A stretch of 22,774 nucleotides of DNA from a virus, in the IMG/VR virus record IMGVR_UViG_3300028888_004798. One strand, given 5' to 3'. Of the stretch, positions 1,186 through 19,233 are shown in pieces (within the stretch, counting starts at the first letter, position 1; each line of letters starts with the position of its first letter). Under the pieces are notes generated by a model. The model made no database searches. It worked only from the letters and a program-made list of their open reading frames with translations, and was not told the DNA's origin. The position numbers were made by a program, and so were the translations under genes.

Positions 1186-4100
1186 TTATCTTACAATTAT
1201 TTTTTCAATAAAATCTTGCTCTTCAGGACTTAAATTATATTTTTCATATAACTGTTCACTCACTGAATTATTCCAATCAATATCTGAAGATTCAGTAAAA
1301 TCTTGCATAGGAACAAAACTATACACTCTTTTAGGAGCATCTTGAGTTGTTTTATTAGTGCCGACTAATAATTTGAAGAATTTAGTTTCCATATATTTTA
1401 AAGCATTTTGAGCTTCTATTTCACTTTCAAAAGAACCTATTTGTAAAAAGGTTTCAGTACATAATTCACCAGGTTTTCCTATCACAGGAGTAGGCCTATT
1501 ATCTTGTCCTAACTTTCCATTTCCATATGTACGATTAACGAACAATTTATATTTATATAATCCATCTTTTTTAGGAAGTGGATAATCTTGAGGAACATAT
1601 TTAAAAACTCTTATCCTGTTTTCAAGACCAAATATAGATAAATCAGTTGAATTATTTTTATTATTAAAAATTTCGGGCAAATCGTATTTTTTAGGATTTT
1701 TAAAGAAATCTCCTGTAAGTCCATAAGGTTTACGGCTAGAGACAATAGAGTCAAAAGATTCAAAATCATTATCCATTATTTTATGAAGTATGGAAATAAT
1801 TCTTTCATCCCTAATATAAATATCACCTAAGTCATGTAAATATCTAGTGGAATATTGTATTTCTCCATTATTATGGAATACAATTTCACAAGGCCTTTCT
1901 TCATTTTCACTTCTTAAGAAATAACATATTCCGCCTTTTATTTCAACAGTTGGGAAAATATCCTTAGAACTAACGTAATCAAATAATTTAATTATATGTT
2001 TATCTTTAAGCATATCTTCTCTAAAATCATCTAAGTTTTTACCACTAGTGTACCATCTAGCAGGTATAATTAATGATATGTAATTAGGTTGTAATTTTTT
2101 AGATACATCAACAAAATGCTGAAAAACATTTTTTGCACTAGCACTAGCGCCCCCATCCATCTCTTGATAAGGGGGATTTCCTACAATAGCATCAAATTTC
2201 ATTTTACCATCACCTTTAATCTGCCAGAAATTTGGATCTGAAATATTAGTTATTAGTTCATCATCATTATTTTTAAATTGATTTAACATGTCATCAAAAT
2301 AACAAGCATTAAATTTACCCTCTCTAAAACCTAATAAAGTTCTTCTTGCTATATCTTTAGCCATTGGAGTTTTACAAATAATAAAAATATTGTTTTCTAT
2401 AATGTCAAACCAGATATCCCATTGGCTATCTATTGATAACACCATAGAATAAGAATCAACTTTATTTTTATAAATATTATATGACGTGTATAATTGATAT
2501 AAACCTGTTTTAGAATTAATCTCTAAAATTTTACTGTTTTCATTAAATACATTAGATGTGAGAAATCCACGAGAAACAAAACGAGGTTCATCTAAAAGAC
2601 CATCTACAAAATCAAATGAATCATCATAGAAACACCATCCACCAAAACAATCACTTAAATGCATATTTACTACTCGCCATGGTGTTAAAACTGTTTCTTT
2701 ATCTGGATTTTTAAAATAAGAATGTATTTCTGTAATTCTTTGAATACGTTCCTCAATAGGCAAGTTATCAGCATCTTTTATCGTACGTCTGATTTTATTT
2801 CCTGCAGCTACAAATACTTCTTCATCATAATATTTGATAAATTTTTCAAATAGTTCTTTAGTCACACCAACAGGCATAAACTCTTCCCAAGATTCTTGAT
2901 CAACAATATCATCATTTAAGAAGTCTCTAAGTTTAAAATCATAATCAATAGGAATATCTGCTCCAAATATTAAAAGAGGCATCCTAATAGATATTTCTTT
3001 CAAAATTAATATTGCATCTTTTTTTTGTTTTTCTAATTCATCTTCTTTATCTACTAATGCTTCTTCTTCAGGAGTTCTTTCATCTTCTGGTTTTGTTTTA
3101 ATTTCCCCGACTTTTTCTATATCTTCCTCTGTTAATCCAGTTATATTAATATCAATATTTTTTATATCTGAATTGGTTTTAGAACTTACAATAGCTTTTT
3201 TAAGTTCATTAAAATCTAATAAATCAACATCTGTTAAAGTCAGAAGATTATTATTGTATAAATTACTATCATTAAAACCATTTATAACAGCTTTATCAGC
3301 ATAAGCTCTTTTAAGTTGCTGAAGCATTTTAGGTACATTATATGGTTTCATTCCAGTATTGTCTATTGAAATTACAGGGCAAAAGTTTAAAAATTTCTTA
3401 AGAGCTTTCCTTTGACTATCAGTTGATTCTCCTGCTTTCGTAGAAAGATGAACCGCTTCAGCAACAACTTTTAAAGTTCTGTCTGGAGCAAAATCAAATA
3501 CATAACAATCAGTTTTAATTTTTCCGAATTTATTGCAAGGGGATTGTGCTCTAAAAATAGTCTGAAGATAATTTGAAGCTGAAACTAAATTAGAACCTGA
3601 TAAATACATAACTGATGTCCATTCTCTAACTGTGACTCCAGTAGTTAATTTTCCACATGATAATGTAATTGTGTATCCATCTTCTCCAGCATCATCAATA
3701 GCATCCATAACTAGTTTTAAAGCTTCATCATTAGGATCTTCATCATCACCATCACCGGCAACATTTACAATATCAAAACCACTAAAAACCGGATGCCCCC
3801 TTAATAATTTACTAAGTGCTTTAGCCTCGGCAACTCCAGGAAGTAACCAAAATGAGTGTTTAAATAAATCCCTATATTTCTTACTTGCAAAAGGATAATT
3901 ATTATTTTCATCTTCCCGAGATATCAAATTTAAAAAACTGATTACATCATCTTCATAGACAAAATCACCAATTTGTTTATCAGGAGGTACCTCCATAGAA
4001 TCCTTTTCAATATTTCCTGTCCATGTTCTAAAAAATTCTTTAAAATTAAATGCTTTGTCAATTATGTCATTATACTGGACAGTATTTAACAATTCGCCTA

Positions 4101-5205
4101 AATCATATGTGAAGATGTGCATTTTAGGTAATTCTGCATAAGGATTAGAATCCCCCCAATGTTCTATATCCCACTTTCTTTTAGCTTCTTGTTCCATCAT
4201 ATAATCCCAAGTATAAATTTCATCATCTTCATACTCGTCTTTAATATTAAATGGAGTCCCAGATAATTCCAAACGTTTTGTATTATCTTTAATTAAAGCT
4301 TCATAAACACTTTGACCTAATTCAGTTCTTGTTCCTTCATGTGCTTCATCAATAATTACTAAATCCCAATCCAAATCGAAAATTTCATCATTTTTATCAA
4401 AAGTTCCACCAACAGTCGTAGAACCTCTTAAATCTTGGATAGAAGCAAAATAAACAAAATTCCTTCCAGAATCTATTAAGTCTTTTAATGAATTATAACC
4501 TGTTCCTTTAGAACCATATTCATAACCATCCCCATCAAAAAATATTTTATTAAAATCATCATACCAACTTTTATCAACAACCGGGCGATGAGTTATAATA
4601 ATACTTTTTTCAAATTTTTCACGTTTAATAACTTCTAAGGCAGCTAATGTTTTACCAAAACGCATTTTTGCATTCCATAACATGCGTGGATATTTCTCAA
4701 ATCTTTTAACAGTTTTTTCAATAGCCTCTATTTGTTCTGGCCTAAATATAATTGGATTATAATCCTCTGAAGTAGTAGTGCCTGAAAGATTATGTTTTCC
4801 ATCTTTTTTAGCTTTAATTGCTTCTATAGCTATATTAAGTCCCACTTCAAACCATTCTTTAGCATTACCTATTTCTTTTCTAGGATATCCTGAATTGATT
4901 AAAATGTTATGAACATCATGATCTCTAAAAGATTCTGATTTAGATTTATCATCAGATTCAGTAATAGCTAGTTCAGTATGTAAAAGAATATATTCAATAC
5001 CTGCTGTTTGAGTATAATGATTTATTCTGTTTTTAGCTGAGGCATTCAAATCGTCACAGTTAGGGGGTAACTGATTAGGAGTTTTACTAGTATTAATAGT
5101 TGTGTCTCCTATTTTTAACAGATTTTTATGTGCTTCATCATTTATAGTAAAAATATAAATGAGTTTGTACTTAAAAGTTTTTTCAAATTCGATTGAACTA
5201 GGCAT
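1186..5205 (-). CDS. Restriction-modification fusion: N-terminal putative GIY-YIG/T5orf172-like nuclease, SF2 helicase/ATPase, Eco57I-like N6-adenine methyltransferase and TRD
   Basis: Walker A-like NAKMRFGKT, IIDEAH, helicase-C motifs LSCGKLTTGVTV and YLQTIFRAQSP; ETVLTPWRVV; catalytic motif IV FDAIVGNPPYQE; C-terminal TRD-like region. Confidence 0.85.
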   Translation of the reverse strand: MPSSIEFEKTFKYKLIYIFTINDEAHKNLLKIGDTTINTSKTPNQLPPNCDDLNASAKNRINHYTQTAGIEYILLHTELAITESDDKSKSESFRDHDVHNILINSGYPRKEIGNAKEWFEVGLNIAIEAIKAKKDGKHNLSGTTTSEDYNPIIFRPEQIEAIEKTVKRFEKYPRMLWNAKMRFGKTLAALEVIKREKFEKSIIITHRPVVDKSWYDDFNKIFFDGDGYEYGSKGTGYNSLKDLIDSGRNFVYFASIQDLRGSTTVGGTFDKNDEIFDLDWDLVIIDEAHEGTRTELGQSVYEALIKDNTKRLELSGTPFNIKDEYEDDEIYTWDYMMEQEAKRKWDIEHWGDSNPYAELPKMHIFTYDLGELLNTVQYNDIIDKAFNFKEFFRTWTGNIEKDSMEVPPDKQIGDFVYEDDVISFLNLISREDENNNYPFASKKYRDLFKHSFWLLPGVAEAKALSKLLRGHPVFSGFDIVNVAGDGDDEDPNDEALKLVMDAIDDAGEDGYTITLSCGKLTTGVTVREWTSVMYLSGSNLVSASNYLQTIFRAQSPCNKFGKIKTDCYVFDFAPDRTLKVVAEAVHLSTKAGESTDSQRKALKKFLNFCPVISIDNTGMKPYNVPKMLQQLKRAYADKAVINGFNDSNLYNNNLLTLTDVDLLDFNELKKAIVSSKTNSDIKNIDINITGLTEEDIEKVGEIKTKPEDERTPEEEALVDKEDELEKQKKDAILILKEISIRMPLLIFGADIPIDYDFKLRDFLNDDIVDQESWEEFMPVGVTKELFEKFIKYYDEEVFVAAGNKIRRTIKDADNLPIEERIQRITEIHSYFKNPDKETVLTPWRVVNMHLSDCFGGWCFYDDSFDFVDGLLDEPRFVSRGFLTSNVFNENSKILEINSKTGLYQLYTSYNIYKNKVDSYSMVLSIDSQWDIWFDIIENNIFIICKTPMAKDIARRTLLGFREGKFNACYFDDMLNQFKNNDDELITNISDPNFWQIKGDGKMKFDAIVGNPPYQEMDGGASASAKNVFQHFVDVSKKLQPNYISLIIPARWYTSGKNLDDFREDMLKDKHIIKLFDYVSSKDIFPTVEIKGGICYFLRSENEERPCEIVFHNNGEIQYSTRYLHDLGDIYIRDERIISILHKIMDNDFESFDSIVSSRKPYGLTGDFFKNPKKYDLPEIFNNKNNSTDLSIFGLENRIRVFKYVPQDYPLPKKDGLYKYKLFVNRTYGNGKLGQDNRPTPVIGKPGELCTETFLQIGSFESEIEAQNALKYMETKFFKLLVGTNKTTQDAPKRVYSFVPMQDFTESSDIDWNNSVSEQLYEKYNLSPEEQDFIEKIIVR

Positions 5206-6178
5206 TATTTTTCCCTTCTTTGATTAAATCTATAAATTTAATTGTTTTTCCACTATCCCAATCTTTAATTTTACAATAAGTTCCATTATGTTTAGTTATT
5301 TGATTTTTCTTACATCCAATACATTCAATTTCTGTTTCTTCAGGACCCATTAATGTATTAATAATTTTTTTACCATTTTGACATGAAAATGGAACCACAT
5401 ATTTTAAAGCATCCATTTGAAAGATATTCCAAGAAATAATCTCCGCAATATCATATAAAAAATCATATTCTGGATTCTTATCAAATTTTTCAATGAAATA
5501 ATCAACAAAAGTAAATAAAATATTTTCTCTTGCTAAAAGAAGACTGTCTCCTTGAAATTCAAAAGCATAAATATTTTCAAAAGATTTTTTAGCCCAATAT
5601 AACCAATCATCTTGATTATTTGTATTTTCAGAAACAACTCTTAATTTTCTATCTAAAAGACCAATTCTGTTTTTTACTTTGATAAATTCTCCTGTGACCG
5701 CATCATACCTACTTACAAGATAAGGTGCTTCACCGCAAGTTATTTCTAATCTAGTGTCAAGTATATAATCTTGCCAGGTTTTTCCTTTAGGGAATTTTAT
5801 TTTATTAATATTTGGTTCCCATGTCTCCCCATTCTCTTGATTGAAAACGTTTTTACAATTGAACCATTTTTCATCAATTAGATTATTCTGTTTATTACAT
5901 ATCCAAGAAGGAGTAAAAACTTCTCCACTATCTCGGCTTCTTGTTGTTTGTTGATCATCTGTTTTTTTAATTCTAGGTTTAATAACATCTCCATTGTCCC
6001 CAGTGATTAATTCAGGACATATTCTTGAAGTTATTTCATAACCTTCACCATAATCTTCATAATCACTTGTTGCCCAAATGATATTTTTATTGGAGGAACG
6101 GTCTTTTAAAAGAATTTGCAATAATTCTGGATTGGATTTTTTTATAAAATTTTCTTTAATATCAATTCCCTGTTGCAT
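5198..6178 (-). CDS. Methyltransferase-like partner subunit of the RM locus (SAM-binding half, no NPPY motif seen)
   Basis: GEVFTPSWIC, LEITCGEAPYL (motif I-like), IYAFEFQGDSLLLARENI, WNIFQMDAL. Overlaps the start of the 1339-aa gene by 8 bp. ATG 6178 has a GGAGAATAGG RBS; alternative start 6193. Confidence 0.75.
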   Translation of the reverse strand: MQQGIDIKENFIKKSNPELLQILLKDRSSNKNIIWATSDYEDYGEGYEITSRICPELITGDNGDVIKPRIKKTDDQQTTRSRDSGEVFTPSWICNKQNNLIDEKWFNCKNVFNQENGETWEPNINKIKFPKGKTWQDYILDTRLEITCGEAPYLVSRYDAVTGEFIKVKNRIGLLDRKLRVVSENTNNQDDWLYWAKKSFENIYAFEFQGDSLLLARENILFTFVDYFIEKFDKNPEYDFLYDIAEIISWNIFQMDALKYVVPFSCQNGKKIINTLMGPEETEIECIGCKKNQITKHNGTYCKIKDWDSGKTIKFIDLIKEGKNNA

Positions 6179-6404
6179 TATCCTATTCTCCATTAATTTA
6201 TTAGGAAGTAAATAAGTATTTTAGATAGACATTACTAGGCTTTCACAGTCAATTTAATCATCTTAACAATAGTATAAACTTGTTACTATGTATATTATGA
6301 AAACAATATATATTTTTATATTACATACAACATTACATATCGTCATTTCTTTAAGCTAGTTAAATTGAAGAAAATATATAGTAGTGGTTATAAATAATAT
6401 AATA

Positions 6405-6543: not shown

Positions 6544-6689
6544 TATCCTTTAGTTCTATTTTTAAATAACAATTTAATTATTATATCCTCTTTTCAAAAT
6601 TTTTTTAAAAGTAGCTATTATATAGAGATATTTATATAATATAAATAATAAATTAAGTAATAGTAAAATATTAGTGGAGGACATATATA

Positions 6690-7193
6690 ATGGCAGATTC
6701 TATTATCTTATTAGAAGAGCGTAAAGAAGTCACAACTTTCTTATTAGATGAAGGTGCGATTACTGCAACTACTGTAACAACTCCTACTGGTGAAACTCCA
6801 GGATATGAGTATGCAGGCAATAAAATTAAAGTCGATGATGTCGTAACATTATCAGCTAACTCAGATATCGGAAAACCTACAGTTAAAAAATATACTGCAG
6901 CTGAAGGCGAAATCATTTTAGGTATTGCAGTTAACGATCCAGTTACCATGACCGGAGGCAGAAGAAAAACTTCCATCCTTGTATTAGGTCATTTATTCAG
7001 ATTGAAATTAGCTAGCGGTTTATCCAACATTGCCGTTAATGATCATATTGCTTTAACATCCACTGGAGCTATTAAGTCTGATGACGGCGAATATATTGCA
7101 ATGCACCCTGTAGCAAGTTCTGACGATTACAAATACATTGAAGTATTCAGACCATATGATATTGGCGCCACTGGCGAAAGTGGTCAAACATAA
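6690..7193 (+). CDS. Probable capsid decoration/cement protein (beta-tulip, DUF2190-like)
   Basis: Position directly before the capsid genes; pattern DDVVTLS...ILGIAVND...SILVLG...IAVNDHIALTSTGAI...YIAM...IEV resembles cement proteins. GGAGG RBS. Confidence 0.6.
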   Translation: MADSIILLEERKEVTTFLLDEGAITATTVTTPTGETPGYEYAGNKIKVDDVVTLSANSDIGKPTVKKYTAAEGEIILGIAVNDPVTMTGGRRKTSILVLGHLFRLKLASGLSNIAVNDHIALTSTGAIKSDDGEYIAMHPVASSDDYKYIEVFRPYDIGATGESGQT

Positions 7194-7205
7194 AGGTGAT
7201 AATGA

Positions 7206-8144
7206 ATGATTACAAAAGGAAATAATACTAAAGTTCAAAACGAGGTAATAGCTCAAACTATTACTGATGAAACTGCAAAAAGGTTAAAGTTGGCCAGATT
7301 GTTTCCTAAGCAAGAAATTAAAGAGAACTCAGATTATTATACTTACTTTAGACAAAACATTAATCTTGATGAAGCTATTAAAAAAGGATTGCTCGGTGAG
7401 GCCAAAGACATTGCCCCAGGTGCAAGCCTTCAAGAATTAAACATAAGAAAACCAGTAACAGACACTATCAGCATAGATACTGTTGGTGGAGTCTTGAATG
7501 TCAATAAAGATGTGTTTGATTCAGACATTGTTTCATTTGAGGATTTATTAGGTGATGTAGCTACCGTTATTGCAAATCGTATTGAATACAACATTTACGA
7601 TACAATAATCAGCTCACCAAATGTTCCTGCATACAATACCACCCAAACGGATGACACTATGGATGCATTCGGTAAATTCGTTATCAGTGCACAGGAGGCA
7701 TTCAAAGGTAACGCTGGAGCAGGTGCAGACTTAACAATAATGGCAGAGTCTTACAAAACATTATCATACGTTAAACAATTAGCGTACAGTTCTAACAAGT
7801 TAGTTCAACCGGTAGAAGCTATTAAAGAATACTACGGTATTGACAACATTGATCTTTTAGGAACAACCCAAGCTGACGGCGGATCATTAATAGGTGAAAA
7901 ACAATATATCGGTTTTGATCTCCGTAATGCACCGTTAACAGTATTGTATTCTAAATCTTCAGGAACTACTGTTGCGCCTATTACATCCGATGAAAACATT
8001 GCAGACTTCTATCCACTCATTGAAATCATGAGAAAAGATATTTACGATGAATTACCTCAATACACCAAATTATTTATACAAAGTAAAGTAGGAATATTAT
8101 TAAATAAACCAGGTCTTGCTTTGAAAGGTACTTGCAGACCATAG
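7206..8144 (+). CDS. HK97-fold major capsid protein, paralog 1
   Basis: 312 aa. E-loop/spine-helix pattern IAPGASLQELNIRKPVTDTISIDTVGGVLNVNKDVFDSDIVSFEDLLGDVATVIANRIEYNI. GGTGA RBS; follows the decoration-like gene. Confidence 0.75.
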   Translation: MITKGNNTKVQNEVIAQTITDETAKRLKLARLFPKQEIKENSDYYTYFRQNINLDEAIKKGLLGEAKDIAPGASLQELNIRKPVTDTISIDTVGGVLNVNKDVFDSDIVSFEDLLGDVATVIANRIEYNIYDTIISSPNVPAYNTTQTDDTMDAFGKFVISAQEAFKGNAGAGADLTIMAESYKTLSYVKQLAYSSNKLVQPVEAIKEYYGIDNIDLLGTTQADGGSLIGEKQYIGFDLRNAPLTVLYSKSSGTTVAPITSDENIADFYPLIEIMRKDIYDELPQYTKLFIQSKVGILLNKPGLALKGTCRP

Positions 8145-8157
8145 GAGGCGATAGTTA

Positions 8158-9084
8158 ATGTTAACCAAAGGAAATGATGCAAAAGTACAAAATGAAGTCA
8201 TGGCACAGATAGTGGCCGATACTTCAGCCAAATGGATGAAATTCACCAGATTACTTCCAAAGCAAGAGATAGAAGAAAACTCACAATACTATACCTATAT
8301 GTCTCAAAGAGTCAACATCGAGGAAGCTATTCAAAGCGGCGTACTCGGTGAGGCCAAAGACATTGCTCCTGGCGCAACCCTTCAGGAATTAAACGTTAGA
8401 AAACCAATCAGCGAAACCGTATCCATTGACACTATCGGTGGAGTCTTAAACGTTTCAGCTCAAATGCTGGATTCCAATTTAATCAGCGTTAATGACATGT
8501 TACAGGATGTAGGTATCCTCATCGGTAGAAGTATTGAAAAGGCAGCTATTGATATGATAATGAATTCATCCAAAGTAGCTACCTACAACTTCGAATCTGG
8601 CGATGACACTGGTATGACCATCCTTAAAGCACAGGAAAAATTCAAAGAAGGTGCCGGAAGCTATGCCAACTTAAACAGTATGGCTGTTAGTTACAAATCT
8701 CTCACTACATTAAAATCTGACATATTCTCAAGTAACAGACAAGTTGAACCGGTAGAATTAATCAAAAGCTATTACGGCGTTGATAATATTGATATCCTTG
8801 GAACTGCTGTTTGCGATGGTGGTTCTGAGATGGGTGACAAAACATATATTGGTATGGACTACATTAACCCAGGAATGAAATTGTTATACTCCAGGACTAC
8901 AGGAACAACCGTTGCACCTTTAGGACCTGACGGTGAAATGTACGATTTCTATCCATTAATCGAATTCATGCGCAAAGACATACGTGACGAATTGCCTATG
9001 TATACAAAACTATTCATACTTTCCTCCGTCGGTGTGTTAATGAACGCACCTAATAGAATAATCAAAGGACAATTCAGAGCATAG
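8158..9084 (+). CDS. HK97-fold major capsid protein, paralog 2
   Basis: 308 aa, colinear paralog of 7206..8144 (about 67 of the first 100 residues identical by manual alignment; shared DFYPLIE.MRKDI.DELP.YTKLFI). GGAGG RBS. Confidence 0.75.
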   Translation: MLTKGNDAKVQNEVMAQIVADTSAKWMKFTRLLPKQEIEENSQYYTYMSQRVNIEEAIQSGVLGEAKDIAPGATLQELNVRKPISETVSIDTIGGVLNVSAQMLDSNLISVNDMLQDVGILIGRSIEKAAIDMIMNSSKVATYNFESGDDTGMTILKAQEKFKEGAGSYANLNSMAVSYKSLTTLKSDIFSSNRQVEPVELIKSYYGVDNIDILGTAVCDGGSEMGDKTYIGMDYINPGMKLLYSRTTGTTVAPLGPDGEMYDFYPLIEFMRKDIRDELPMYTKLFILSSVGVLMNAPNRIIKGQFRA

Positions 9085-9239: not shown

Positions 9240-9272
9240 ATAAGCTGGGAATCAGACCCTCTCCCAGCTTAT
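9240..9272 (+). terminator. GC-rich hairpin, probable terminator or processing site after the capsid operon
   Basis: Perfect 11-bp inverted repeat ATAAGCTGGGA / TCCCAGCTTAT with an 11-nt loop, followed by CTATTTCT. Confidence 0.5.
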
Positions 9273-9332
9273 CTATTTCTAAAAAAAATATATGTAATAT
9301 TAATAGCTATAATATATACCAGAGGATATAAG

Positions 9333-9731: not shown

Positions 9732-9843
9732 TCCACATTAACATCGGCCATTAGCTATTGAAAACTTATTTTTTGAAACCCTTTCATATATATCACGGTT
9801 TAAATTCAGAATTGAATTGTGAAAACCCTTCCGTTAACGTTAA
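9732..9843 (+). repeat. 112-bp dispersed repeat, copy A
   Basis: TCCACATTAAC...GCTATTGAAAACTTATTTTTTGAAACCCTTTCATATATATCAC...CCGTTAACGTTAA; same register as copies B-D. Confidence 0.85.
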
Positions 9844-10011
9844 TGTTGAATCAATAAATTAATAGCTATTGATTGCACCTATAGATTATCTCATCCGGAA
9901 CTTCAAATATTCATTCTAGTAAGAAATATATTTTTCCAGTAATGAAATATCAAACGTTAATGTTAATGTCATAATCATCCAACCATTACTTACTATTTCT
10001 CTATATACCTA

Positions 10012-10058
10012 TTGCGACTCGTTTCACTCGTCGCAACCTGTCCAACTTCGTTGGACAG
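10012..10058. other. Twin GC-rich hairpins, both with TTC loops
   Basis: TTGCGAC-TC-GT-TTC-AC-TC-GTCGCAA immediately followed by CTGTCCAAC-TTC-GTTGGACAG (perfect 9-bp stem). Confidence 0.7.
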
Positions 10059-10177
10059 CTTATTTTTTAAATATCAAAATGTTTATATACATCGAATTAC
10101 AGAGTAAGTATATACATTAATAATGTAATTACATTTATTAAGTAACTACATTAATTAATATCAAGGAGGAATTTAAC

Positions 10178-10735
10178 ATGACTGACGACCAGGACAATTA
10201 TGAAGCGTTAATTGAAAAACATGCTCAACGCCAAATGAACCTTAAAGAAGCAAAAGAAGATTACATTCAAGAAGAACAGACACCACGAAAACAGATAACA
10301 GTTAAAATATTCCCGAATACTCACAAAGCTTTAAAATTAATAGCAACTGCCAAAGACACCAGTTTAGAAAAGATTGCAACATCCATTATCGAAGCTAAAA
10401 CAAAAGACTTAGATATTGTTGAATATGTAAGAGAAGCAGTTGAAAACACTGAAGCATTTGAAGATGGCTTTGATTGGTTACATAGAGAAGACATTGACAA
10501 TTCAGCTTATGATTTAAACGATAAGTTATTGAATAAAGGCAATCCACGAAAAAGAATCAATGTTAAAGTTGATTTAGAAACTCACAGAAAATTAAGGATA
10601 GTCTCAGCTATTCAAGACAGATCACTTGATAAGATTGTCTGCTCCATCATTGAATATGAAGTTGGAGAGAAAACTCATATTGACACATCCAAATTAATGG
10701 ATGAAATACTAGAATCAATTAAAGATAAAGAATAG
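10178..10735 (+). CDS. Protein with two tandem ribbon-helix-helix (CopG/Arc-like) domains
   Basis: Internal duplication PRKQITVKIFPNTHKALKLIATAKDTSLEKIATSIIE / PRKRINVKVDLETHRKLRIVSAIQDRSLDKIVCSIIE. GGAGG RBS. Confidence 0.75.
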   Translation: MTDDQDNYEALIEKHAQRQMNLKEAKEDYIQEEQTPRKQITVKIFPNTHKALKLIATAKDTSLEKIATSIIEAKTKDLDIVEYVREAVENTEAFEDGFDWLHREDIDNSAYDLNDKLLNKGNPRKRINVKVDLETHRKLRIVSAIQDRSLDKIVCSIIEYEVGEKTHIDTSKLMDEILESIKDKE

Positions 10736-10766
10736 CTAACGTTAATGTTAGTGTTGGACTTGGAGA

Positions 10767-11927
10767 TTAAATTAAAGTAACCTTATCCTTCGGAACATAT
10801 TCTATTGTTTCGGTAGGTTCTTTTTCCACCTCTATCTCTTCAAGTTCAACAGGTTCTTTATCTTTAACAATAGTATTATGCCTACCACTTATTAAAGTGT
10901 TTACACGGGTTAATGACTTTGTATCTCCAAGTAAGTGATTATAATCTTTAGCTAATTCATTGTATTTCAATTTATTAGCATTTACTTCCTGAGTATAAGC
11001 TATTAGCATTTGTGCTTTTTCTTCAGTATGCTTAACTTCCATTTCAGATTTTTGTTTGGAAAGTTTCATATCAACTTCAGCACTTAATTTATCTAATTCA
11101 AGTTTAGCATCTTTAACTTTATCTTTCAGGTTATCAATTTCTTCATAATGTTCTTTTGGAGGAATATAATCTTTTAACATTGATAGAGATTCAACTTTTT
11201 CAGTTAATTCATCTATATGTGTTTGTTGCTTTTGGATGGTTTCTTTTAACTCTTTTTCTTTATTAAGAAAACTGGACTGGAGTTCGTCCTTAGTTTCCTT
11301 ATAGTTATCGTTAATGCCAATAATATTTTGATTCAGTAACTTATTGGTTTCATTAATGTGAATATTTGCGGTCTTCAGCTGTTCGTTGTCTTTGATCAAT
11401 TCTTCATTTCTGTTTGCAAGATCATCTGAAGATTCCATAAGATTTTCAAATGCATTCTTCCAATATTCAACTTCGCTCTCCTTGGTTTTCAATTCTTCTT
11501 TTAAAGTTTCAATATCATCTACGGATTCAACTTTAACATCCTTGGAGGATTCAAGTTCTTTAGCTAGTGAATCAACTCTTGTTACAAGTTCTTTAATTGT
11601 ATTGTCCTTTTCTGAATTCTCATTGGTTAATTCAGTAATGGTTTTATCCTTTTCCTGAAGCTGTGCTTTTAAATCTTCAGCGTCAGTGTCAGTTGTTCCT
11701 TTAGCTATTATGCCTTCAAGTTCTTTTATTCTGGCTTTGTATTCATCTACATTGTCTAATTCTTTCATTACATCAAAGCGTTGCTCTTCTGATAAAACAT
11801 AGACTTTTTCGCCAACATCAAAAATAGTATTGCTGAATCCTATCCTGTTTGCATTTGCAGTATTTTTCTTTACTTCAAATTCCAGGCCGATTCCTTTATC
11901 ACTTTTTTCAAGAGTTTTTTCATCCAT
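10767..11927 (-). CDS. Long coiled-coil protein with a small N-terminal beta domain (possibly AbrB/SpoVT-like)
   Basis: 386 aa with about 280 residues of E/K/L heptad-rich sequence; N-terminal LEFEVKKNTANANRIGFSNTIFDVGEKVYVLS. GGAGTG RBS. Confidence 0.65.
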   Translation of the reverse strand: MDEKTLEKSDKGIGLEFEVKKNTANANRIGFSNTIFDVGEKVYVLSEEQRFDVMKELDNVDEYKARIKELEGIIAKGTTDTDAEDLKAQLQEKDKTITELTNENSEKDNTIKELVTRVDSLAKELESSKDVKVESVDDIETLKEELKTKESEVEYWKNAFENLMESSDDLANRNEELIKDNEQLKTANIHINETNKLLNQNIIGINDNYKETKDELQSSFLNKEKELKETIQKQQTHIDELTEKVESLSMLKDYIPPKEHYEEIDNLKDKVKDAKLELDKLSAEVDMKLSKQKSEMEVKHTEEKAQMLIAYTQEVNANKLKYNELAKDYNHLLGDTKSLTRVNTLISGRHNTIVKDKEPVELEEIEVEKEPTETIEYVPKDKVTLI

Positions 11928-11986
11928 CCATTTTCACTCCAAATCCTTAACATACATATCTTTATAACAACTATATTTTATAGCTA

Positions 11987-12686
11987 TTGCAATTAATTGC
12001 AATTTTATTGCAACAAAAATTGCAACAGTTGCAACTGGAATTGCAACTCGATTTTGAAAATTGCAACTTTTGAACAATGTTGAATACTGTTTAATTTGGC
12101 CCCTATTCGGAAAAATAGAAACGACAATTGCAGTTTTTGGGGGTAGGTTGTTTGCTTGCAGGAAGGTGCAAGTATTGTAATACATATATCGTAATATATA
12201 CATTTCCTTGGTATGCCAGAAAACCCACCCCAGACGGGTGTTTTTGGACATCCATCTGTCCCAGTAGCTGTTCGGCACTTTCGTAATATACTACAATAAT
12301 TTATATACATTCGTGTAAACATTCACAATTGCAACTGTTGCAACTTTTAAATACTGAATTGCAACTTGCATTAAAATGGGGTCAAAAACGGATATGCGGG
12401 GTTTTTCGATTTTTGGAATTGCAATTAATTGCAATAAAATTGCAATTCTTAGGGGGAAAATTGCAACTAAATTGCAATTTCTCATTGACGTTAAATTTAA
12501 CATTCTTAAAATTACACTTGTTCAGTTATCAATAACTTTTTTAATAAAATATTGAACAAACTAATAATTAAAAATTGCAATTAATTGCAACTCTGATTCT
12601 GGTTTTCAGGGTGAAAATTTCAGGAGTTGCAACTGAGTTGCAATAAAGTTGCAACAAAATTGCAATAGTTGCAACTGGAATTGCAA
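11987..12686. repeat. Array of 23 TTGCAA palindromes in five clusters around a GC-richer core
   Basis: Counted at 11987, 11997, 12008, 12020, 12029, 12041, 12061; 12329, 12338, 12359; 12419, 12429, 12440, 12461, 12472; 12575, 12585; 12627, 12638, 12649, 12660, 12669, 12681. Confidence 0.95.
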
Positions 12687-12816
12687 CACCAAAAACTGTC
12701 ATGACATATAGACTAACTAATACAAAAACTAACAATTGAAGTAATAAAATATTGTATTACAAAAATTAGTTACGCTATATAAAATTAATAATACTATGAT
12801 ATATAAATAATATAAT

Positions 12817-13626
12817 ATGTCAAGTAATAGTATAAGCTGGACTCAATTCTGCCAGGGCATGAACTCAATATGTTACTGGCTCATCCAGAACAAAAAGAAA
12901 TATAAGAAACGTGACTACTACCAAATACTAAAACTGAAAGGTAGTTGTGCAGATGTTGAAAAGAAAGCAAAGAAACTAGGAAACAATAAGCTAGTGGCAA
13001 TGTATACAATGGCGGTGATTAAAGACAATAAGTCATTGGATTTCCTTCCAAACTACGTGACATTAAAAAACGGCCTTCAGATAGATAAAGCTGAATACAT
13101 TGACATGGCCATAAGGACTGAAGCATACATTACAGCCAACAAAAGACTTCCAGCTATTGTATATAGGATGTCCAAACTTCCTGACTATAAAGACACCACA
13201 ATGAATTTCTTTATCAAAACCTTCAACTATAAAGGCAATACCATAGATGAGGCTTTAGCTATTATATCCAAAAAGGAATTATATAGCAAGTACTTTGATT
13301 CACAAAAAACAGACAAACAAACCATTAATGATGCAAGTAAAGGTAAAGGCTCCAACTGTGTGGACTGGGGACAAGTATATTACCGTATCGCCAAATCATT
13401 AGGCTATGAGGTTCAATTCGTACATGTTAAATGTCGTGTAAGTGGTACTGGCCATATCAGATTAAGGCTCAGGCACAAGAAACATACTGAAGGAAACTGG
13501 ATCAACCGTGACCCTGCAGCAGTTGCAGATACAACATCCGGAAATGTTAGATCCCTCTGGTGTGAAGACGGATATGTTATAGCTATTGATCCAAGTTGGA
13601 TATTTACAGATTTATATTCCATTTAA
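12817..13626 (+). CDS. peiW: Pseudomurein endoisopeptidase (PeiW/PeiP-like endolysin, peptidase C71)
   Basis: Pseudomurein-binding repeat LPNYVTLKNG..IDKAEYIDMAIRTEAYITANKRLPAIV; catalytic triad motifs SNCVDW (Cys), GTGHIRL (His), NRDPAA (Asp). Confidence 0.85.
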   Translation: MSSNSISWTQFCQGMNSICYWLIQNKKKYKKRDYYQILKLKGSCADVEKKAKKLGNNKLVAMYTMAVIKDNKSLDFLPNYVTLKNGLQIDKAEYIDMAIRTEAYITANKRLPAIVYRMSKLPDYKDTTMNFFIKTFNYKGNTIDEALAIISKKELYSKYFDSQKTDKQTINDASKGKGSNCVDWGQVYYRIAKSLGYEVQFVHVKCRVSGTGHIRLRLRHKKHTEGNWINRDPAAVADTTSGNVRSLWCEDGYVIAIDPSWIFTDLYSI

Positions 13627-13635
13627 GGTGATAAC

Positions 13636-13863
13636 ATGAATTGTGGCGAAGCAATTGAAGTTTTAAAAAAATTTCCAAAAGATAAACCATTAATGATAAT
13701 GGGATGGTATAGTATTGCAGAAACAGATGAACCTGAAGGCATTAACAGTATATGTTATCTCAAAGAAGTAGACATAGACACTTTAGAAGTCACAGGTGAA
13801 ATAAAAGACTTTGTAGCTATTGTTAGTGACAAGTATCACGAAATAGCAAGCGAATTTCCATAA
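13636..13863 (+). CDS. Small acidic hypothetical protein
   Basis: 75-aa ORF with AAGGTGA RBS, 9 bp after the pei stop; ends 8 bp before repeat copy B. Confidence 0.7.
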   Translation: MNCGEAIEVLKKFPKDKPLMIMGWYSIAETDEPEGINSICYLKEVDIDTLEVTGEIKDFVAIVSDKYHEIASEFP

Positions 13864-13871
13864 TTAACCAA

Positions 13872-13981
13872 TTGACATTAACGGCTGGGGTTGGCTATTC
13901 AAAACTCACTTTCTGAAACCCTTTCATATATATCACAGGGGAAACAAGATTGATTTGAGAAATCGTGGCCGTTAATGTTAA
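13872..13981 (+). repeat. 110-bp dispersed repeat, copy B
   Basis: TTGACATTAAC...GCTATTCAAAACTCACTTTCTGAAACCCTTTCATATATATCAC...CCGTTAATGTTAA. Confidence 0.9.
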
Positions 13982-14110
13982 TGTCCATTTAAGTAAATTA
14001 AAAGAAAAAAAGTAACTATTATAATTTTAACATTAATAATTCAATAGAGCAAATGCAGAATCACTTAATAAAATAAAAAAAAGAAGTTGTTAAAAATTTA
14101 ACAACAAAGT

Positions 14111-14431
14111 TTATACTACTTTAGATTGGATAAATTTACCTACAAATGCTCCAAATAATCCTAATATAATATTTAAAATGAATATTGAGAAATTTCCATA
14201 TAGTAATCCAATAAATAAACTAGCAATTATTCCAATTAAAGCACCATAAATAATAGCATATACAGTTGTGTTTTTACATAAAAATCCAGCAACTGCTGTA
14301 GCTAATACCAATCCTAAATAACTTACAATACTGCCTCCGCCAAGCATACAAATTATAACAAAAATTATTGATATAACTGCACCAACAGCGATAGGAAATA
14401 TTTCTATATTACCTGCAATATCTTCATCCAT
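14111..14431 (-). CDS. Small integral membrane protein (3-4 TM helices)
   Basis: 106 aa, almost entirely hydrophobic and Gly-rich; GAGGTGA RBS. Confidence 0.8.
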   Translation of the reverse strand: MDEDIAGNIEIFPIAVGAVISIIFVIICMLGGGSIVSYLGLVLATAVAGFLCKNTTVYAIIYGALIGIIASLFIGLLYGNFSIFILNIILGLFGAFVGKFIQSKVV

Positions 14432-14559
14432 TTTTTCACCTCATTTAATAAGCTAAAATTTTTTTATAATATTTCCTTCCATTATTAACTTAAAAAAATC
14501 TAAACTATATTTAAAAATATATATTTAATATATTATTATAATTTGTGTATACAAAGAGG

Positions 14560-14671
14560 TTAACATTAACATCCTGCATTAGCTATTCAAAACTAACTTT
14601 CTGAACCCCTTGCATATATATTGAGGTCGCAAATCAAAATCTATTTTCCAAAACACGACCGTTAATGTTAA
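14560..14671 (+). repeat. 112-bp dispersed repeat, copy C
   Basis: Perfect 11-bp terminal inverted repeat TTAACATTAAC (14560-14570) / GTTAATGTTAA (14661-14671); core GCTATTCAAAACTAACTTTCTGAACCCCTTGCATATATAT. Confidence 0.9.
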
Positions 14672-14681
14672 AGTAGGCTAA

Positions 14682-15380
14682 TTAAATTTCAAAAGTAAGT
14701 GGCATGTGGTCACTTATTTTCAACCATTTATCAGCATTTCCAATTAGTAAATCTTTAACTTTATCAGGTGCAGAAAATATGTGGTCCAAGTGAAATGGGC
14801 TATTAATATTTCTACGCCAGTAAAATGTAGGTATTGATTCCTTTCCTTCTTGCTCTCCAGTCAAATAATGATATATATCTACAAGCCCTTTCTCAGATAA
14901 CTTATCTATCATTTCATAAACATTCATACCATGCTGTTTATTAACTAATCTTACATCACAATTAAAATCTCCACAGATAATCATCTCTTCATTGAAAAAT
15001 CCTGAATCCCTGTGTTCTTCATAATATCGAGTAATTTCTTTAGGATAATAAATTTCTTTACGTCCTTCAATGTTAGGATTAGTCCAAACACCTAAAAGAT
15101 TAAAATCATCATTAACACGAACAGGTATGAAATATCTAAGCCCTTTATCATCTAAATCCACTAATTCTATTTTAACATTATCTTTAGCAAATATTCCAAG
15201 ACCATACTTTTGATTATCCCCAACCCAAAAATAATTAGAAGCAAATTCAGTATAATCCTCTGAATCCATTACTACTGGATTCTCACATTCTTGAATAACG
15301 TAAATATCCGCTCTTTCTTCAAGAATTGCAGGAAATCTTTCACTAAAGTAGCCATTAGAATTCCATGAAACTATTTTCAT
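14682..15380 (-). CDS. Endonuclease/exonuclease/phosphatase (ExoIII/DNase I-like) family protein
   Basis: Motifs MKIVSWNSNG, IYVIQE, IICGDFN, HLDHIF and SDHMPL in canonical order. Confidence 0.9.
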   Translation of the reverse strand: MKIVSWNSNGYFSERFPAILEERADIYVIQECENPVVMDSEDYTEFASNYFWVGDNQKYGLGIFAKDNVKIELVDLDDKGLRYFIPVRVNDDFNLLGVWTNPNIEGRKEIYYPKEITRYYEEHRDSGFFNEEMIICGDFNCDVRLVNKQHGMNVYEMIDKLSEKGLVDIYHYLTGEQEGKESIPTFYWRRNINSPFHLDHIFSAPDKVKDLLIGNADKWLKISDHMPLTFEI

Positions 15381-15436
15381 CTTATTTCCCCAATTAATTG
15401 ATATTTATACATATGTTACTATCATTATATAATTAG

Positions 15437-15548
15437 TTAACATTAACACCCGCCATCACCAATTCAAAACTTACTTTCTGAAACCCTTTCATATATATAC
15501 AAGTCCACAATCAGATTTCAAATCCAAAAACCCTGCCGTTAATGTTAA
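15437..15548 (+). repeat. 112-bp dispersed repeat, copy D
   Basis: Perfect terminal inverted repeat TTAACATTAAC (15437-15447) / GTTAATGTTAA (15538-15548); core ATTCAAAACTTACTTTCTGAAACCCTTTCATATATAT. Confidence 0.9.
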
Positions 15549-17027: not shown

Positions 17028-17834
17028 ATGGGTCAGAAAAATTCAGACGTTAAATACTTTTTAGAGCAACATGAACAAGAAATAATAAACTGTTGCAAGA
17101 AAGGAATGAGTAACAATGAAGTCCGTAAACTACTAAAAACAAAATATGGAAGAGATGTCGCAGATAACACCTACAGAAAATTCAAAGCAAAACTGAAAAT
17201 TAAAAAAACTGATTTCCTGGAAACATTACTGGATGAAATAACAGTAATGAAAGAATCCGGTGCTACTGATGCTAACATTAGAAGATGGTTAGCAGAAGAT
17301 CATGATGTTGAAATAAGCCGCTCAACTTTCTCCAGATTCAAGAAAAAATATAACATAACAGATCAAGAAAAAACTCCACATGATAAAAAATCATTGACAA
17401 ACAGAGCTATCAGCCAAAAACAAATACTAGACAATAACGTTCATCAAGATAATATTGACATAGCTATTGACACCATATTGCAGCAACAGGTCACTGACAT
17501 TCAGACAGGACTGGACAATCTCGACAGGATAACCCGAAACGCTATAAGCATTGAAATTGATTTTGAAAAACTGGAAAGAGAAATAAGACTCAATGCTAGC
17601 GAAAAAAATATTGGAAGATATTTGCTTGATTTTACTGAATTAAAAATACGTTACTTGGAATTATCTGTTAGAACATTCGAAGCCAAAAACAAATTATTCA
17701 AAGATGAAATGGACAGACTATTTAAAAACAGAGTCCTTGAACTAGAAGATAAAAAAATTGAAATATCTCAAAAAGACATTATGGATGAAATAGAAGTTCT
17801 TGCAAAACAAATAGATGATAATAATGTACAATAA
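17028..17834 (+). CDS. Probable terminase small subunit (two tandem HTH-like repeats plus a helical oligomerisation region)
   Basis: Overlaps the terL start; repeats FLEQHEQEIINCCKKGMSNNEVRKLLKTKYGRDVADNTYRKFKAKL / FLETLLDEITVMKESGATDANIRRWLAEDHDVEISRSTFSRFKKKY. TerS call rests on position and architecture only. Confidence 0.55.
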   Translation: MGQKNSDVKYFLEQHEQEIINCCKKGMSNNEVRKLLKTKYGRDVADNTYRKFKAKLKIKKTDFLETLLDEITVMKESGATDANIRRWLAEDHDVEISRSTFSRFKKKYNITDQEKTPHDKKSLTNRAISQKQILDNNVHQDNIDIAIDTILQQQVTDIQTGLDNLDRITRNAISIEIDFEKLEREIRLNASEKNIGRYLLDFTELKIRYLELSVRTFEAKNKLFKDEMDRLFKNRVLELEDKKIEISQKDIMDEIEVLAKQIDDNNVQ

Positions 17835-19233
17835 AGATGGCCAATTCTATTTAGGTGCAAGAGACAAAGCTATTCTTCAAAAATGTGTATATGAAAATCC
17901 ATACATACCATTTAAACCATTTGTCAAACAAGCTGAGATGATTCTAGCAACAGAAAAGGAAGTTCTGATTGGTGGTGCCGCTGGAGGTAGTAAATCAACC
18001 AGCCTGTTAATGAGAGCCTTATTTTATGTTCAGGACGATGTTAATGAATACCATGCATTAATATTGCGTAGAACATTATCTGATTTGAAAAGGAAAGGTG
18101 CATTGATTCATAAAGCCAGCCAATGGCTTAACCGTAAAGAGATTCAAAGAGACCCAGCTATTCGGCCGAAGTGGGATGGTACTGAACATTCATGGACATT
18201 TCCAAACGGCAATAGTTTAACCTTTGGATATTTACGTAACATTAACGACCTCGATACTTATCAGGGTTCTGAATACCAGTTCATTGGCATTGATGAGTTA
18301 ACGCAACTGGAACGCTTTAAATATATTTATATGCGTTCACGTGTCCGAAAAACTAAGGACAATAAACTTCCAACACAGTTAATGTGCTCAAGTAATCCTG
18401 GTAAGCGTGGTAATAAATGGGTCAGGGAAAGATTCATCGAAAAGATAGATGCAGACATTCAGGACAAAGACCAGATAAGATTTATCAGCTCCAGTTATGT
18501 CGATAATGTTTATCTGGACAGACAGGACTATGAAGAATATCTTATGGGCTTGGATAGAGTTACACGTGAGCAGTTAATGAACGGTAACTGGTATGCTTCA
18601 GTTAAAGGTGAGCTATTTGATGAATCAGATTTCCACTTGATCTCTCATGACGAATTTTTGAAAATACCTATCATCCGGATCATCAGGTATTGGGATCTTG
18701 CTGCAACTGAAGTTCTCAACGATGACAAACTCAAAGGTAATGATCCAGATTATACCGCAGGAGTGTTACTGGCCAAAGATTTAAACGGCAATATTTACAT
18801 CCTTGATTCTTATGAGTTTCAATTGGAGTCACGGAATCTTATTAATGAAATCATTAACACTGCAGCGCGTGATAAAGCGGATGTGCAGTATATAGAACTT
18901 GACGGTTCCACTGGTAAGAACTTTGGCCTGTTAATTATTGATGAATTAAACCGAAGAGGATTTACTACAGGCACTGGAAATTCACGTGAGAATAAAGTTG
19001 ACCGTGCCAGAAGAGTTTCAGCTGACATCCAACTTAACGGAATTTTCCTGGTTGGGAAGGATAGAACAGGGTTTACTAAAAAATGGGCCATGGAATTTCT
19101 TGAAAAAATTACAGCATACCCTAACGAATCCATTCACGATGACTGTGTTGTTGCATTCACCGGTGCATATGAGAAACTGGCTACTGAAAAGCAACCTCAA
19201 AGAGTTGATGTTGATAAATGGTATTCTACATAA
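17815..19233 (+). CDS. terL: Terminase large subunit (Terminase_6/T4-like ATPase plus RNase H-fold nuclease)
   Basis: Walker A GGAAGGSKS, Walker B FIGIDELTQ, coupling motif SSNPG, nuclease YWDLAA...HDDCV. Alternative start 17824. Confidence 0.93.
   Translation: MIIMYNKDGQFYLGARDKAILQKCVYENPYIPFKPFVKQAEMILATEKEVLIGGAAGGSKSTSLLMRALFYVQDDVNEYHALILRRTLSDLKRKGALIHKASQWLNRKEIQRDPAIRPKWDGTEHSWTFPNGNSLTFGYLRNINDLDTYQGSEYQFIGIDELTQLERFKYIYMRSRVRKTKDNKLPTQLMCSSNPGKRGNKWVRERFIEKIDADIQDKDQIRFISSSYVDNVYLDRQDYEEYLMGLDRVTREQLMNGNWYASVKGELFDESDFHLISHDEFLKIPIIRIIRYWDLAATEVLNDDKLKGNDPDYTAGVLLAKDLNGNIYILDSYEFQLESRNLINEIINTAARDKADVQYIELDGSTGKNFGLLIIDELNRRGFTTGTGNSRENKVDRARRVSADIQLNGIFLVGKDRTGFTKKWAMEFLEKITAYPNESIHDDCVVAFTGAYEKLATEKQPQRVDVDKWYST

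What the first reader, a model, noticed from the sequence alone, without database searches (positions are those of the whole stretch)
6690..9084. Two tandem, diverged HK97-like major capsid genes in a stand-alone three-gene operon
Seen: two intact paralogs of 312 and 308 aa, each with its own RBS, about two-thirds identical over the first 100 residues and clearly more diverged centrally, behind one decoration-like gene. Knowledge: most tailed viruses have one MCP; T4 uses paralogs gp23/gp24 for hexamers and pentamers. Inference: a hetero-capsid (hexon/penton specialisation) or alternative capsid sizes in an archaeal virus.
Basis: partly seen in the sequence, partly recalled or inferred. Interest (0 to 1): 0.7.

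Follow-up and report, generated by a model that had tools for sequence, protein, structure and literature searches.

The report
Two capsid-shell genes, Methanobrevibacter virus
A widespread group of viruses integrated in gut methanogens (Methanobrevibacter) carries two adjacent, old, selectively kept copies of its head-shell gene, so its capsid is probably built from two related proteins, which is rare among tailed viruses but not new in kind.

Summary
Window 6690-9084 (+) has three tightly spaced genes of 167, 312 and 308 aa. Each has a Shine-Dalgarno site. The last two are 56% identical.

An AlphaFold model of the 312-aa protein (pLDDT 84) matches HK97-fold capsid and encapsulin shells (Foldseek probability 1.0; VIA Z 15-17.6). 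The window is part of a pseudomurein-lysing tailed virus. It is about 83% identical in DNA to Caudoviricetes sp. vir323 (BK063679), where both genes are already annotated as HK97-like major head proteins.

In 251 genomes of the host family I found 24 complete pairs in 18 genomes, always adjacent. Both copies are under strong purifying selection (dN/dS about 0.03-0.05 at dS about 1.3) and are co-inherited. The only broken or chimeric copies lie in decayed provirus remnants. Distant relatives have a single capsid gene in the usual terminase-protease-capsid order, so the pair and its displaced operon are derived.

A capsid built from both proteins is the best reading. Whether the split is hexon versus penton, as in T4, could not be tested. 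Equal codon bias and equal ribosome sites hint weakly at similar amounts of both.

The scan's first readers noted the same pair in about ten other windows. This is a new member of a known kind, of moderate interest.

The parts
6631..6650 (+). A/T-rich TATA-like box (TTTATATAATATAAATAAT) about 40-60 nt upstream of the first gene; a possible archaeal promoter of the operon
   Evidence: Read directly from the sequence. Inferred only: no archaeal promoter tool was available, and the sigma-70 scan does not apply to archaea.
6690..7193 (+). 167-aa all-beta protein, a putative capsid cement/decoration or head-fibre base protein. It ends in three G-X-Y triplets.
   Evidence: ORF and SD site. 250 homologs, all from Methanobrevibacter or its viruses; some are 280-291 aa with a C-terminal collagen repeat. 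It has a paralog, g12, in vir323 fused to a collagen-like fibre. ESM Atlas neighbours carry Phage_cement families at score 0.94-0.95. Pfam gives no hit. The AF2 model is poor (pLDDT 53.6).
7206..8144 (+). MCP-A, a 312-aa HK97-fold major capsid protein paralog
   Evidence: AF2 model with pLDDT 84.4 and pTM 0.81. Foldseek finds phage capsids and encapsulins at probability 1.0. VIA gives Z 15-17.6. The protein is 93% identical to vir323_00024 'major head protein, HK97-like fold'. dN/dS is 0.045. It has no Pfam hit of its own.
8158..9084 (+). MCP-B, a 308-aa HK97-fold major capsid protein paralog
   Evidence: Pfam PF25209 Phage_capsid_4 at 31.8 bits, above the cut-off of 27. It is 56% identical to MCP-A and 96% identical to vir323_00025 'major head protein, HK97-like fold'. 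dN/dS is 0.032.
9243..9280 (+). Hairpin AGCTGGG(13 nt)CCCAGCT followed by a T-rich stretch; a possible end of the operon
   Evidence: Read from the sequence. The terminator scan did not call it because the loop exceeds 8 nt. Inferred only.

Best explanation
The three genes form the capsid-shell operon of a temperate tailed virus of Methanobrevibacter. MCP-A and MCP-B are both real HK97-fold shell subunits. They arose by tandem duplication of a single ancestral capsid gene and have been kept together ever since.

The most likely mechanism is that both are made from one transcript and co-assemble into one head, each occupying positions the other no longer fills well.

The leading version, by precedent from T4 gp23/gp24, is that one paralog forms the hexamers and the other the eleven pentameric vertices. 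A version with mixed capsomers is nearly as likely. The 167-aa protein probably binds the outside of this shell as a trimeric cement or fibre-base protein.

Shown here: the fold, paralogy, adjacency, conservation, purifying selection, and derivation from single-copy relatives. Inferred: co-assembly and any positional assignment. I give about 0.6 to 'both are subunits of the same shell' and about 0.3 to the hexon/penton version specifically.
For: - Fold: the AF2 model (pLDDT 84) matches HK97, PhiTE, HFTV1 and the P. furiosus particle at Foldseek probability 1.0, with VIA Z 15-17.6 over residues 5-312.
- No other capsid candidate: these two are the only ORFs of the complete 34-kb relative vir323 that match the capsid profile, even at E<=10. 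That record's annotators call both major head proteins.
- Conservation: 24 complete adjacent pairs in 18 of 251 genomes; 19 of 40 species genomes in the host genus have a match. All 28 pairs extracted have an SD site and a 6-17 nt gap before the second gene.
- Selection: median dN/dS is 0.045 for A and 0.032 for B, at dS about 1.3.
- Co-inheritance: A-A and B-B distances correlate at rho 0.85, with no discordant provirus.
- Fixed divergence: 76 columns are fixed for different residues in A and B, against 139 invariant columns. In the diverged lineage the A-B pair has dN/dS about 0.44, roughly ten times the within-clade value. This fits functional divergence after duplication.
- Ancestry: distant relatives have one capsid gene in the TerL-protease-MCP order.
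- Integrity: closed genomes G127 and G162 hold complete proviruses with portal, protease, TerL, lysin and both MCPs intact.
Against: - There is no virion proteomics or structure, so co-assembly is not shown.
- Codon bias is the same in both (ENC 44.2 and 44.1) and both have good SD sites in one operon. This suggests similar amounts, whereas a T4-like vertex protein would be needed at about one seventh of the hexamer protein. The argument is weak.
- Fixed differences are spread over the whole fold, with only a mild, uncorrected excess in the spine-helix region (14/35, p 0.035). No element points to a pentamer-specific adaptation.
- vir323 g05 (452 aa, in the canonical post-protease position) has no family match. 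I could not fold it, so another shell component is not excluded.
Confidence: 0.6

Rival explanations
1. Mixed capsomers. A and B are made in similar amounts and form heteromeric hexamers (for example alternating A3B3), giving a pseudo-symmetric HK97 lattice. Pentons would come from one of the two proteins.
For: The two genes share one operon, have SD sites of similar strength and the same codon bias. They are strictly co-inherited. Two-component HK97-fold shells of mixed composition exist among Family 2B encapsulins (PDB 9bix and 9bje appear among the fold matches; paper PMC11071501 listed).
Against: I know of no tailed virus with heteromeric capsomers. Codon bias and SD strength are poor predictors of protein ratio. 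No interface analysis was possible.
Confidence: 0.22
2. Two particle types. Each paralog can build a capsid alone, or their ratio sets the head size or shape (isometric versus prolate, or large versus small). One virus would then make two kinds of particle.
For: Capsid-protein homologs are known to redirect head size and shape (the SaPIbov5 Ccm protein, PMC8569155, listed). Lactococcus phage KSY1 has two MCP-related genes (PMC11476376).
Against: There is no second protease, portal or scaffold copy, and no sign of alternative expression: one operon with no internal promoter or terminator signal found. Provirus sizes in closed genomes look uniform at about 35-40 kb.
Confidence: 0.08
3. Only one paralog is a shell subunit. 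The other is an assembly factor (a scaffold-like or nucleating protein at the portal vertex) or another non-virion protein that keeps the fold.
For: In rudiviruses the second MCP paralog is not incorporated into virions (bioRxiv 10.1101/2023.08.24.554615). No separate scaffolding gene has been identified in vir323.
Against: Both copies keep the complete fold length and 139 invariant columns. These include the motifs shared with single-copy relatives. Both are under equally strong constraint.
Confidence: 0.08
4. Redundant duplicates with no division of labour, or encapsulin-like compartment proteins unrelated to the virion.
For: The best VIA Z-scores are to encapsulins (17.6, against 16.1 for HK97). 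Scores within about 1 are ties.
Against: Redundant copies should decay or homogenise. These stay 53-57% identical and intact across dS above 1. The genes lie in complete proviruses that have no other capsid gene. No cargo or targeting-peptide gene is evident.
Confidence: 0.02

Closest known systems
Caudoviricetes sp. vir323 (BK063679.1 / NC_133304.1), genes vir323_00023 to 00025
   Same: It has the same three genes in the same order. Identities to the window are 89% (167-aa protein), 93% (MCP-A) and 96% (MCP-B). Both long genes are already annotated 'major head protein, HK97-like fold'.
   Different: The window's virus is a different strain or species: about 83% DNA identity over 44% of the window. 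It has a large restriction-modification fusion gene upstream in place of vir323's methyltransferase region. The source paper (Medvedeva et al. 2023, Nat Microbiol) was not held, so I could not check whether the pair is discussed there.
Phage T4 gp23 (hexamers) and gp24 (pentameric vertices)
   Same: One virus encodes two paralogous HK97-fold shell proteins, both needed for one head (established knowledge, not tested here).
   Different: The T4 paralogs are far more diverged, differ in size, carry an insertion domain and are made in very different amounts. Here the copies are 56% identical, of equal length, adjacent, in one operon and with equal codon bias. No sequence relation to gp23 or gp24 was shown.
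Ekchuahviridae (ANME-1 archaeal tailed viruses GBV301 and GBV302)
   Same: These are archaeal Caudoviricetes with two MCP genes, described as unique among the archaeal tailed viruses then known (bioRxiv 10.1101/2022.07.04.498658).
   Different: In those viruses the second MCP is thought to have been acquired horizontally, and each MCP has its own maturation protease. Here the pair is a tandem duplication, with a single protease gene in the genome.
Lactococcus phage KSY1 and Clostridium phage CpV1 (phi29-related)
   Same: Their genomes have two genes related to the phi29 MCP. For KSY1 an origin by duplication is proposed (PMC11476376).
   Different: They are bacterial podoviruses with no detectable sequence relation to this family, and the roles of their two copies are likewise unknown.
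Two-component Family 2B encapsulin (Streptomyces lydicus, PDB 9bix and 9bje)
   Same: Two paralogous HK97-fold proteins co-assemble into one shell of variable composition (PMC11071501, listed). They are fold matches at Z about 16.
   Different: It is a cellular compartment without portal, terminase or tail. The genes here lie in a complete provirus.

Membership tests
HK97-fold major capsid protein of Duplodnaviria | HK97 fold: N-arm, E-loop hairpin, P-domain with a long spine helix, and an A-domain | tested here: met
   The MCP-A model (pLDDT 84.4) has helix 108-135 and the expected strand order. At least 397 PDB chains match at Foldseek E<=1e-3, led by phage capsids. VIA gives Z 16.1 and rmsd 3.8 over 236 residues to HK97 1ohg. 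MCP-B was not folded; its fold is inferred from 56% identity.
HK97-fold major capsid protein of Duplodnaviria | Match to a curated capsid sequence family | tested here: met
   MCP-B scores 31.8 bits against PF25209 Phage_capsid_4 (cut-off 27). Eleven of 25 family members match. MCP-A itself gives no Pfam hit and is linked only through MCP-B.
HK97-fold major capsid protein of Duplodnaviria | Encoded in a genome with portal, maturation protease and large terminase, and no other capsid gene | tested here: met
   TerL is in the window at 17815-19233. Portal, protease and TerL are intact in vir323 and in the G127 and G162 proviruses. No other ORF matches the capsid profile at E<=10. vir323 g05 remains uncharacterised.
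HK97-fold major capsid protein of Duplodnaviria | Presence in virions as the shell | not testable with these tools
   No isolate or proteome of this virus group was found in the literature searched.
T4-type hexamer/vertex paralog pair (gp23/gp24) | Two paralogous shell proteins in one genome, both maintained | tested here: met
T4-type hexamer/vertex paralog pair (gp23/gp24) | One paralog forms only pentamers at the vertices and the other forms hexamers | not testable with these tools
T4-type hexamer/vertex paralog pair (gp23/gp24) | The vertex protein is made in much smaller amounts | tested here: inconclusive
   ENC is 44.2 against 44.1, both genes have SD sites, and they share one operon. 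These are proxies only.
Encapsulin shell protein | A cellular operon with a cargo protein carrying a targeting peptide, and no virion genes | tested here: not met
   The fold similarity is as high as to phage capsids (Z 17.6). However, the genes lie within complete proviruses that have portal, protease, terminase, tail fibres and a lysin.
Phage cement/decoration proteins (PF09956, PF22758, PF23968), for the 167-aa protein | Sequence or fold match to a cement family | tested here: inconclusive
   No Pfam hit for it or for 17 relatives at E<=5. ESM Atlas neighbours with cement families score 0.94-0.95, which is a lead only. The AF2 model is all-beta but has pLDDT 53.6, so no fold search was made.

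The most novel reading that the evidence does not exclude
A and B are obligate partners within each capsomer (for example A3B3 hexamers), so these archaeal viruses build a pseudo-symmetric HK97 lattice from a heterodimeric unit. As far as I know, this architecture has not been described for any tailed virus. It would be the HK97-lineage counterpart of the pseudo-T numbers reached by gene duplication in jelly-roll viruses.
Probability: 0.2. Interest if true: 0.8.

Novelty: new member of a known kind. Interest (0 to 1): 0.45.

Why it matters
Nearly all tailed viruses build their heads from one shell protein that adapts to both hexamer and pentamer positions. The few exceptions, such as T4, show how duplication can relieve that constraint.

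This case is a recent-looking, cleanly tandem example. It is conserved across a virus group present in about half of the sampled species of the main gut methanogen genus. Single-copy relatives are available for comparison, and closed host genomes carry intact proviruses.

That makes the question 'what does a second capsid paralog do?' experimentally approachable in an archaeal system. Inducing a lysogen, doing virion proteomics and solving the capsid by cryo-EM would address it.

It does not overturn any established view, and the genes are already annotated in one public record.

Tried and rejected
- **Literature.** The source paper for vir323 (Medvedeva et al. 2023) is not held by DOI or PubMed id. 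The only full-text hit for 'vir323' is an unrelated paper. I therefore cannot say whether the pair has been discussed in print.
- **Solved structures by sequence.** A profile search found nothing at E<=1.
- **Viral contigs.** With the narrow alignment it gave one locus, essentially vir323 again.
- **The window's own assembly** is not held, so G001 and its relatives were used instead.
- **Timing of the duplication.** The quick tree with long outgroups put both copies of the diverged lineage beside the B clade. The careful tree without outgroups gives a four-way near-polytomy. The AU test does not reject orthology of A with the diverged A (p 0.52). Signature residues do not decide either. One old duplication versus a second duplication or gene conversion stays open.
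- **Recent gene conversion in this window.** None was found. The best DNA match between the two genes is 71% over 300 nt.
- **Codon bias as an expression proxy.** No difference.
- **Regional enrichment of fixed differences.** Only the spine-helix region stands out, at p 0.035 before correction.
- **167-aa protein.** The AF2 model was too poor for a fold search.
- **Structure jobs.** Both were used, so MCP-B and vir323 g05 were not folded.
- **tRNA and Rfam scans** of the window were empty.

Full report
**1. What is there**

Window 6690-9084 (+) holds three ORFs of 167, 312 and 308 aa, separated by 12 and 13 nt. Each is preceded by a Shine-Dalgarno sequence. The two long proteins, here MCP-A (7206-8144) and MCP-B (8158-9084), are colinear and 56% identical (E 8e-128). 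Identity is 57-77% over the first 100 columns, drops to 37% at columns 106-165 and rises again towards the C-terminus. At the DNA level the best match between the genes is 71% over 300 nt, so there is no sign of recent gene conversion. An A/T-rich TATA-like box lies upstream of the first gene, and a hairpin with a T-rich tail follows the third. Both signals are read by eye only.

**2. What the genes are**

- MCP-B passes the curated threshold of Pfam PF25209 Phage_capsid_4 (31.8 bits against 27). MCP-A has no Pfam hit.
- An AlphaFold2 model of MCP-A, built on 25 homologs, has pLDDT 84.4 and pTM 0.81.
- Foldseek finds at least 397 PDB chains at E<=1e-3. The list is led by phage PhiTE, HK97, the Pyrococcus furiosus virus-like particle and the archaeal virus HFTV1, all at probability 1.0.
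- VIA-align gives Z 15-17.6 over residues 5-312 to encapsulins and phage capsids, for example HK97 1ohg at Z 16.1, rmsd 3.8 and 236 aligned residues.

The HK97 fold is therefore established for MCP-A, and for MCP-B by 56% identity.

The 167-aa protein is all-beta in a poor model (pLDDT 53.6) and has no Pfam or PHROG match. Its neighbours in the ESM Atlas carry capsid-cement families at scores of 0.94-0.95. Its relatives include 280-291 aa forms with a C-terminal collagen repeat. In vir323 it has a paralog, g12, fused to a collagen-like fibre, and a weaker paralog, g06. A trimeric shell-binding cement or fibre-base protein is a reasonable but unproven reading.

**3. Context**

The window also encodes:
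- a collagen-repeat tail fibre (3-869);
- a helicase-methylase restriction fusion (1186-5205, - strand);
- a PeiW-type pseudomurein endoisopeptidase (12817-13626);
- a large terminase (17815-19233).

The window is about 83% identical over 44% of its length to the circular 34-kb genome Caudoviricetes sp. vir323 (BK063679, host Methanobacteriales). In that record the same triplet is annotated 'preneck appendage protein' plus two 'major head protein, HK97-like fold'. There the triplet lies after the tail and fibre genes, about 15 kb from portal and protease. The 'stand-alone operon' description is therefore accurate.

The existence of the two capsid genes is already in a public annotation. I could not read the source paper, and full-text searches found no discussion of this pair.

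**4. Conservation**

The nearest held genome, G001, carries four copies of the pair. In 251 genomes of the host family, 27 have a match, and in the host genus 19 of 40 do. In that genus the matches come as adjacent pairs:
- 24 complete pairs in 18 genomes;
- two more that appear cut by contig ends;
- one with a broken first copy.

All 28 pairs that I extracted have an SD site and a 6-17 nt gap before the second gene.

A more diverged lineage (loci L011-L014, with L015 partial) keeps the same arrangement of 167, 310 and 309 aa. Closed genomes G127 and G162 hold complete proviruses with portal, protease, TerL, lysin and both MCPs intact.

There are two exceptions, and both are remnants:
- G155 has a broken portal, lysin and MCP-A, and no protease or terminase within 40 kb.
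- L010 has a single chimeric MCP (A-like N-terminal half, B-like C-terminal half) among restriction and abortive-infection genes.

**5. Selection and history**

Pairwise NG86 estimates give a median dN/dS of 0.045 within A and 0.032 within B, at a median dS of about 1.3. A-A and B-B distances correlate across proviruses (rho 0.85) with no discordant case, so the copies are co-inherited. Seventy-six columns are fixed for different residues in A and B, and 139 are invariant in both. The fixed differences are spread over the fold, with only a mild excess in the spine-helix region.

In the diverged lineage the A-B comparison has dN 0.38 at dS 0.85. That ratio is about ten times the within-clade value and fits accelerated protein change after duplication. 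NG86 is noisy at this depth, so this is suggestive only.

Six distant relatives in other genera have a single capsid gene even at E<=10. In three of them the order is TerL, protease, MCP. The duplication and the displaced operon are therefore derived.

Whether the diverged lineage shares the same duplication is unresolved. The careful tree is a near-polytomy and the AU test does not reject orthology (p 0.52).

**6. Mechanism**

The data exclude decay and simple redundancy and fit two shell subunits with a division of labour.

By precedent from T4 gp23/gp24 (established knowledge), the leading version is hexamers from one paralog and pentameric vertices from the other. Against that version, weakly, both genes sit in one operon with comparable SD sites and identical codon bias (ENC 44.2 and 44.1). 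This hints at similar amounts and so at mixed capsomers.

Two capsid forms, or a non-virion role for one copy, are less likely but not excluded. None of these could be separated here.

**7. Comparison and novelty**

Paired HK97-fold capsid genes are known in:
- T4;
- phi29-related KSY1 and CpV1 (PMC11476376);
- the archaeal Ekchuahviridae, where the second copy is thought to be horizontally acquired and has its own protease.

Two-component encapsulin shells also exist. The present pair differs in being a clean tandem duplication with one protease, in a methanogen virus group that is common in gut Methanobrevibacter.

First readers of this scan flagged the same pair in about ten other windows, none yet followed up. 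One of those notes also recorded the three decoration-domain paralogs that I found independently.

I class the finding as a new member of a known kind, of moderate interest.

Noticed in passing
window 6690-7193; L001 7985-8617 and 5658-6428: The 167-aa protein's domain occurs three times in the relative vir323: free (next to the capsid genes), fused to a collagen-like fibre (g12, 53-56% identical) and in a longer protein (g06, about 26%). The window ORF itself ends in three G-X-Y triplets, like a vestigial collagen start.
   Followed up: partly
G001 contigs C4, C8, C22, C37 (loci L002-L009); G127:C1 at 415 kb and 1793 kb: Single host genomes carry two to four related copies of this capsid operon. 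In the closed genome G127, at least the copy at 415 kb is a complete provirus. This suggests polylysogeny by related viruses.
   Followed up: partly
L010 6217-7155: A single chimeric capsid gene (N-terminal half like MCP-A, C-terminal half like MCP-B) lies among HsdR, AbiTii, AbiJ and KAP NTPase genes. It looks like a provirus remnant collapsed by recombination between the two paralogs, inside a defence island.
   Followed up: partly
window 1186-6193 (-): A 1339-aa fusion of a ResIII/SNF2-type helicase with an Eco57I-type methylase, plus an overlapping 331-aa gene with no family match, lies between the tail fibre and the capsid operon. vir323 has a plain DNA methyltransferase and small genes at this position.
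   Followed up: no
L011 11165-12172 (also L012-L014): In the diverged lineage, the gene after the capsid pair carries Peptidase_C39 domains rather than the PeiW-type Peptidase_C71 lysin of the window's lineage. It may be a different lysis enzyme.
   Followed up: no
L001 7381-7980 (vir323 g11) and its homologs in L011-L014: A conserved 199-aa protein next to the collagen-repeat genes gives weak glycosyltransferase matches (Anp1 at E 4e-5, GT2/GT21). This hints at glycosylation of virion fibres.
   Followed up: no
window 9732-15548, 11987-12687 and 19251-19772: Other first-reader notes on this window describe repeated 110-bp elements and phased TTGCAA and TGGAC arrays. I did not examine them.
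   Followed up: no
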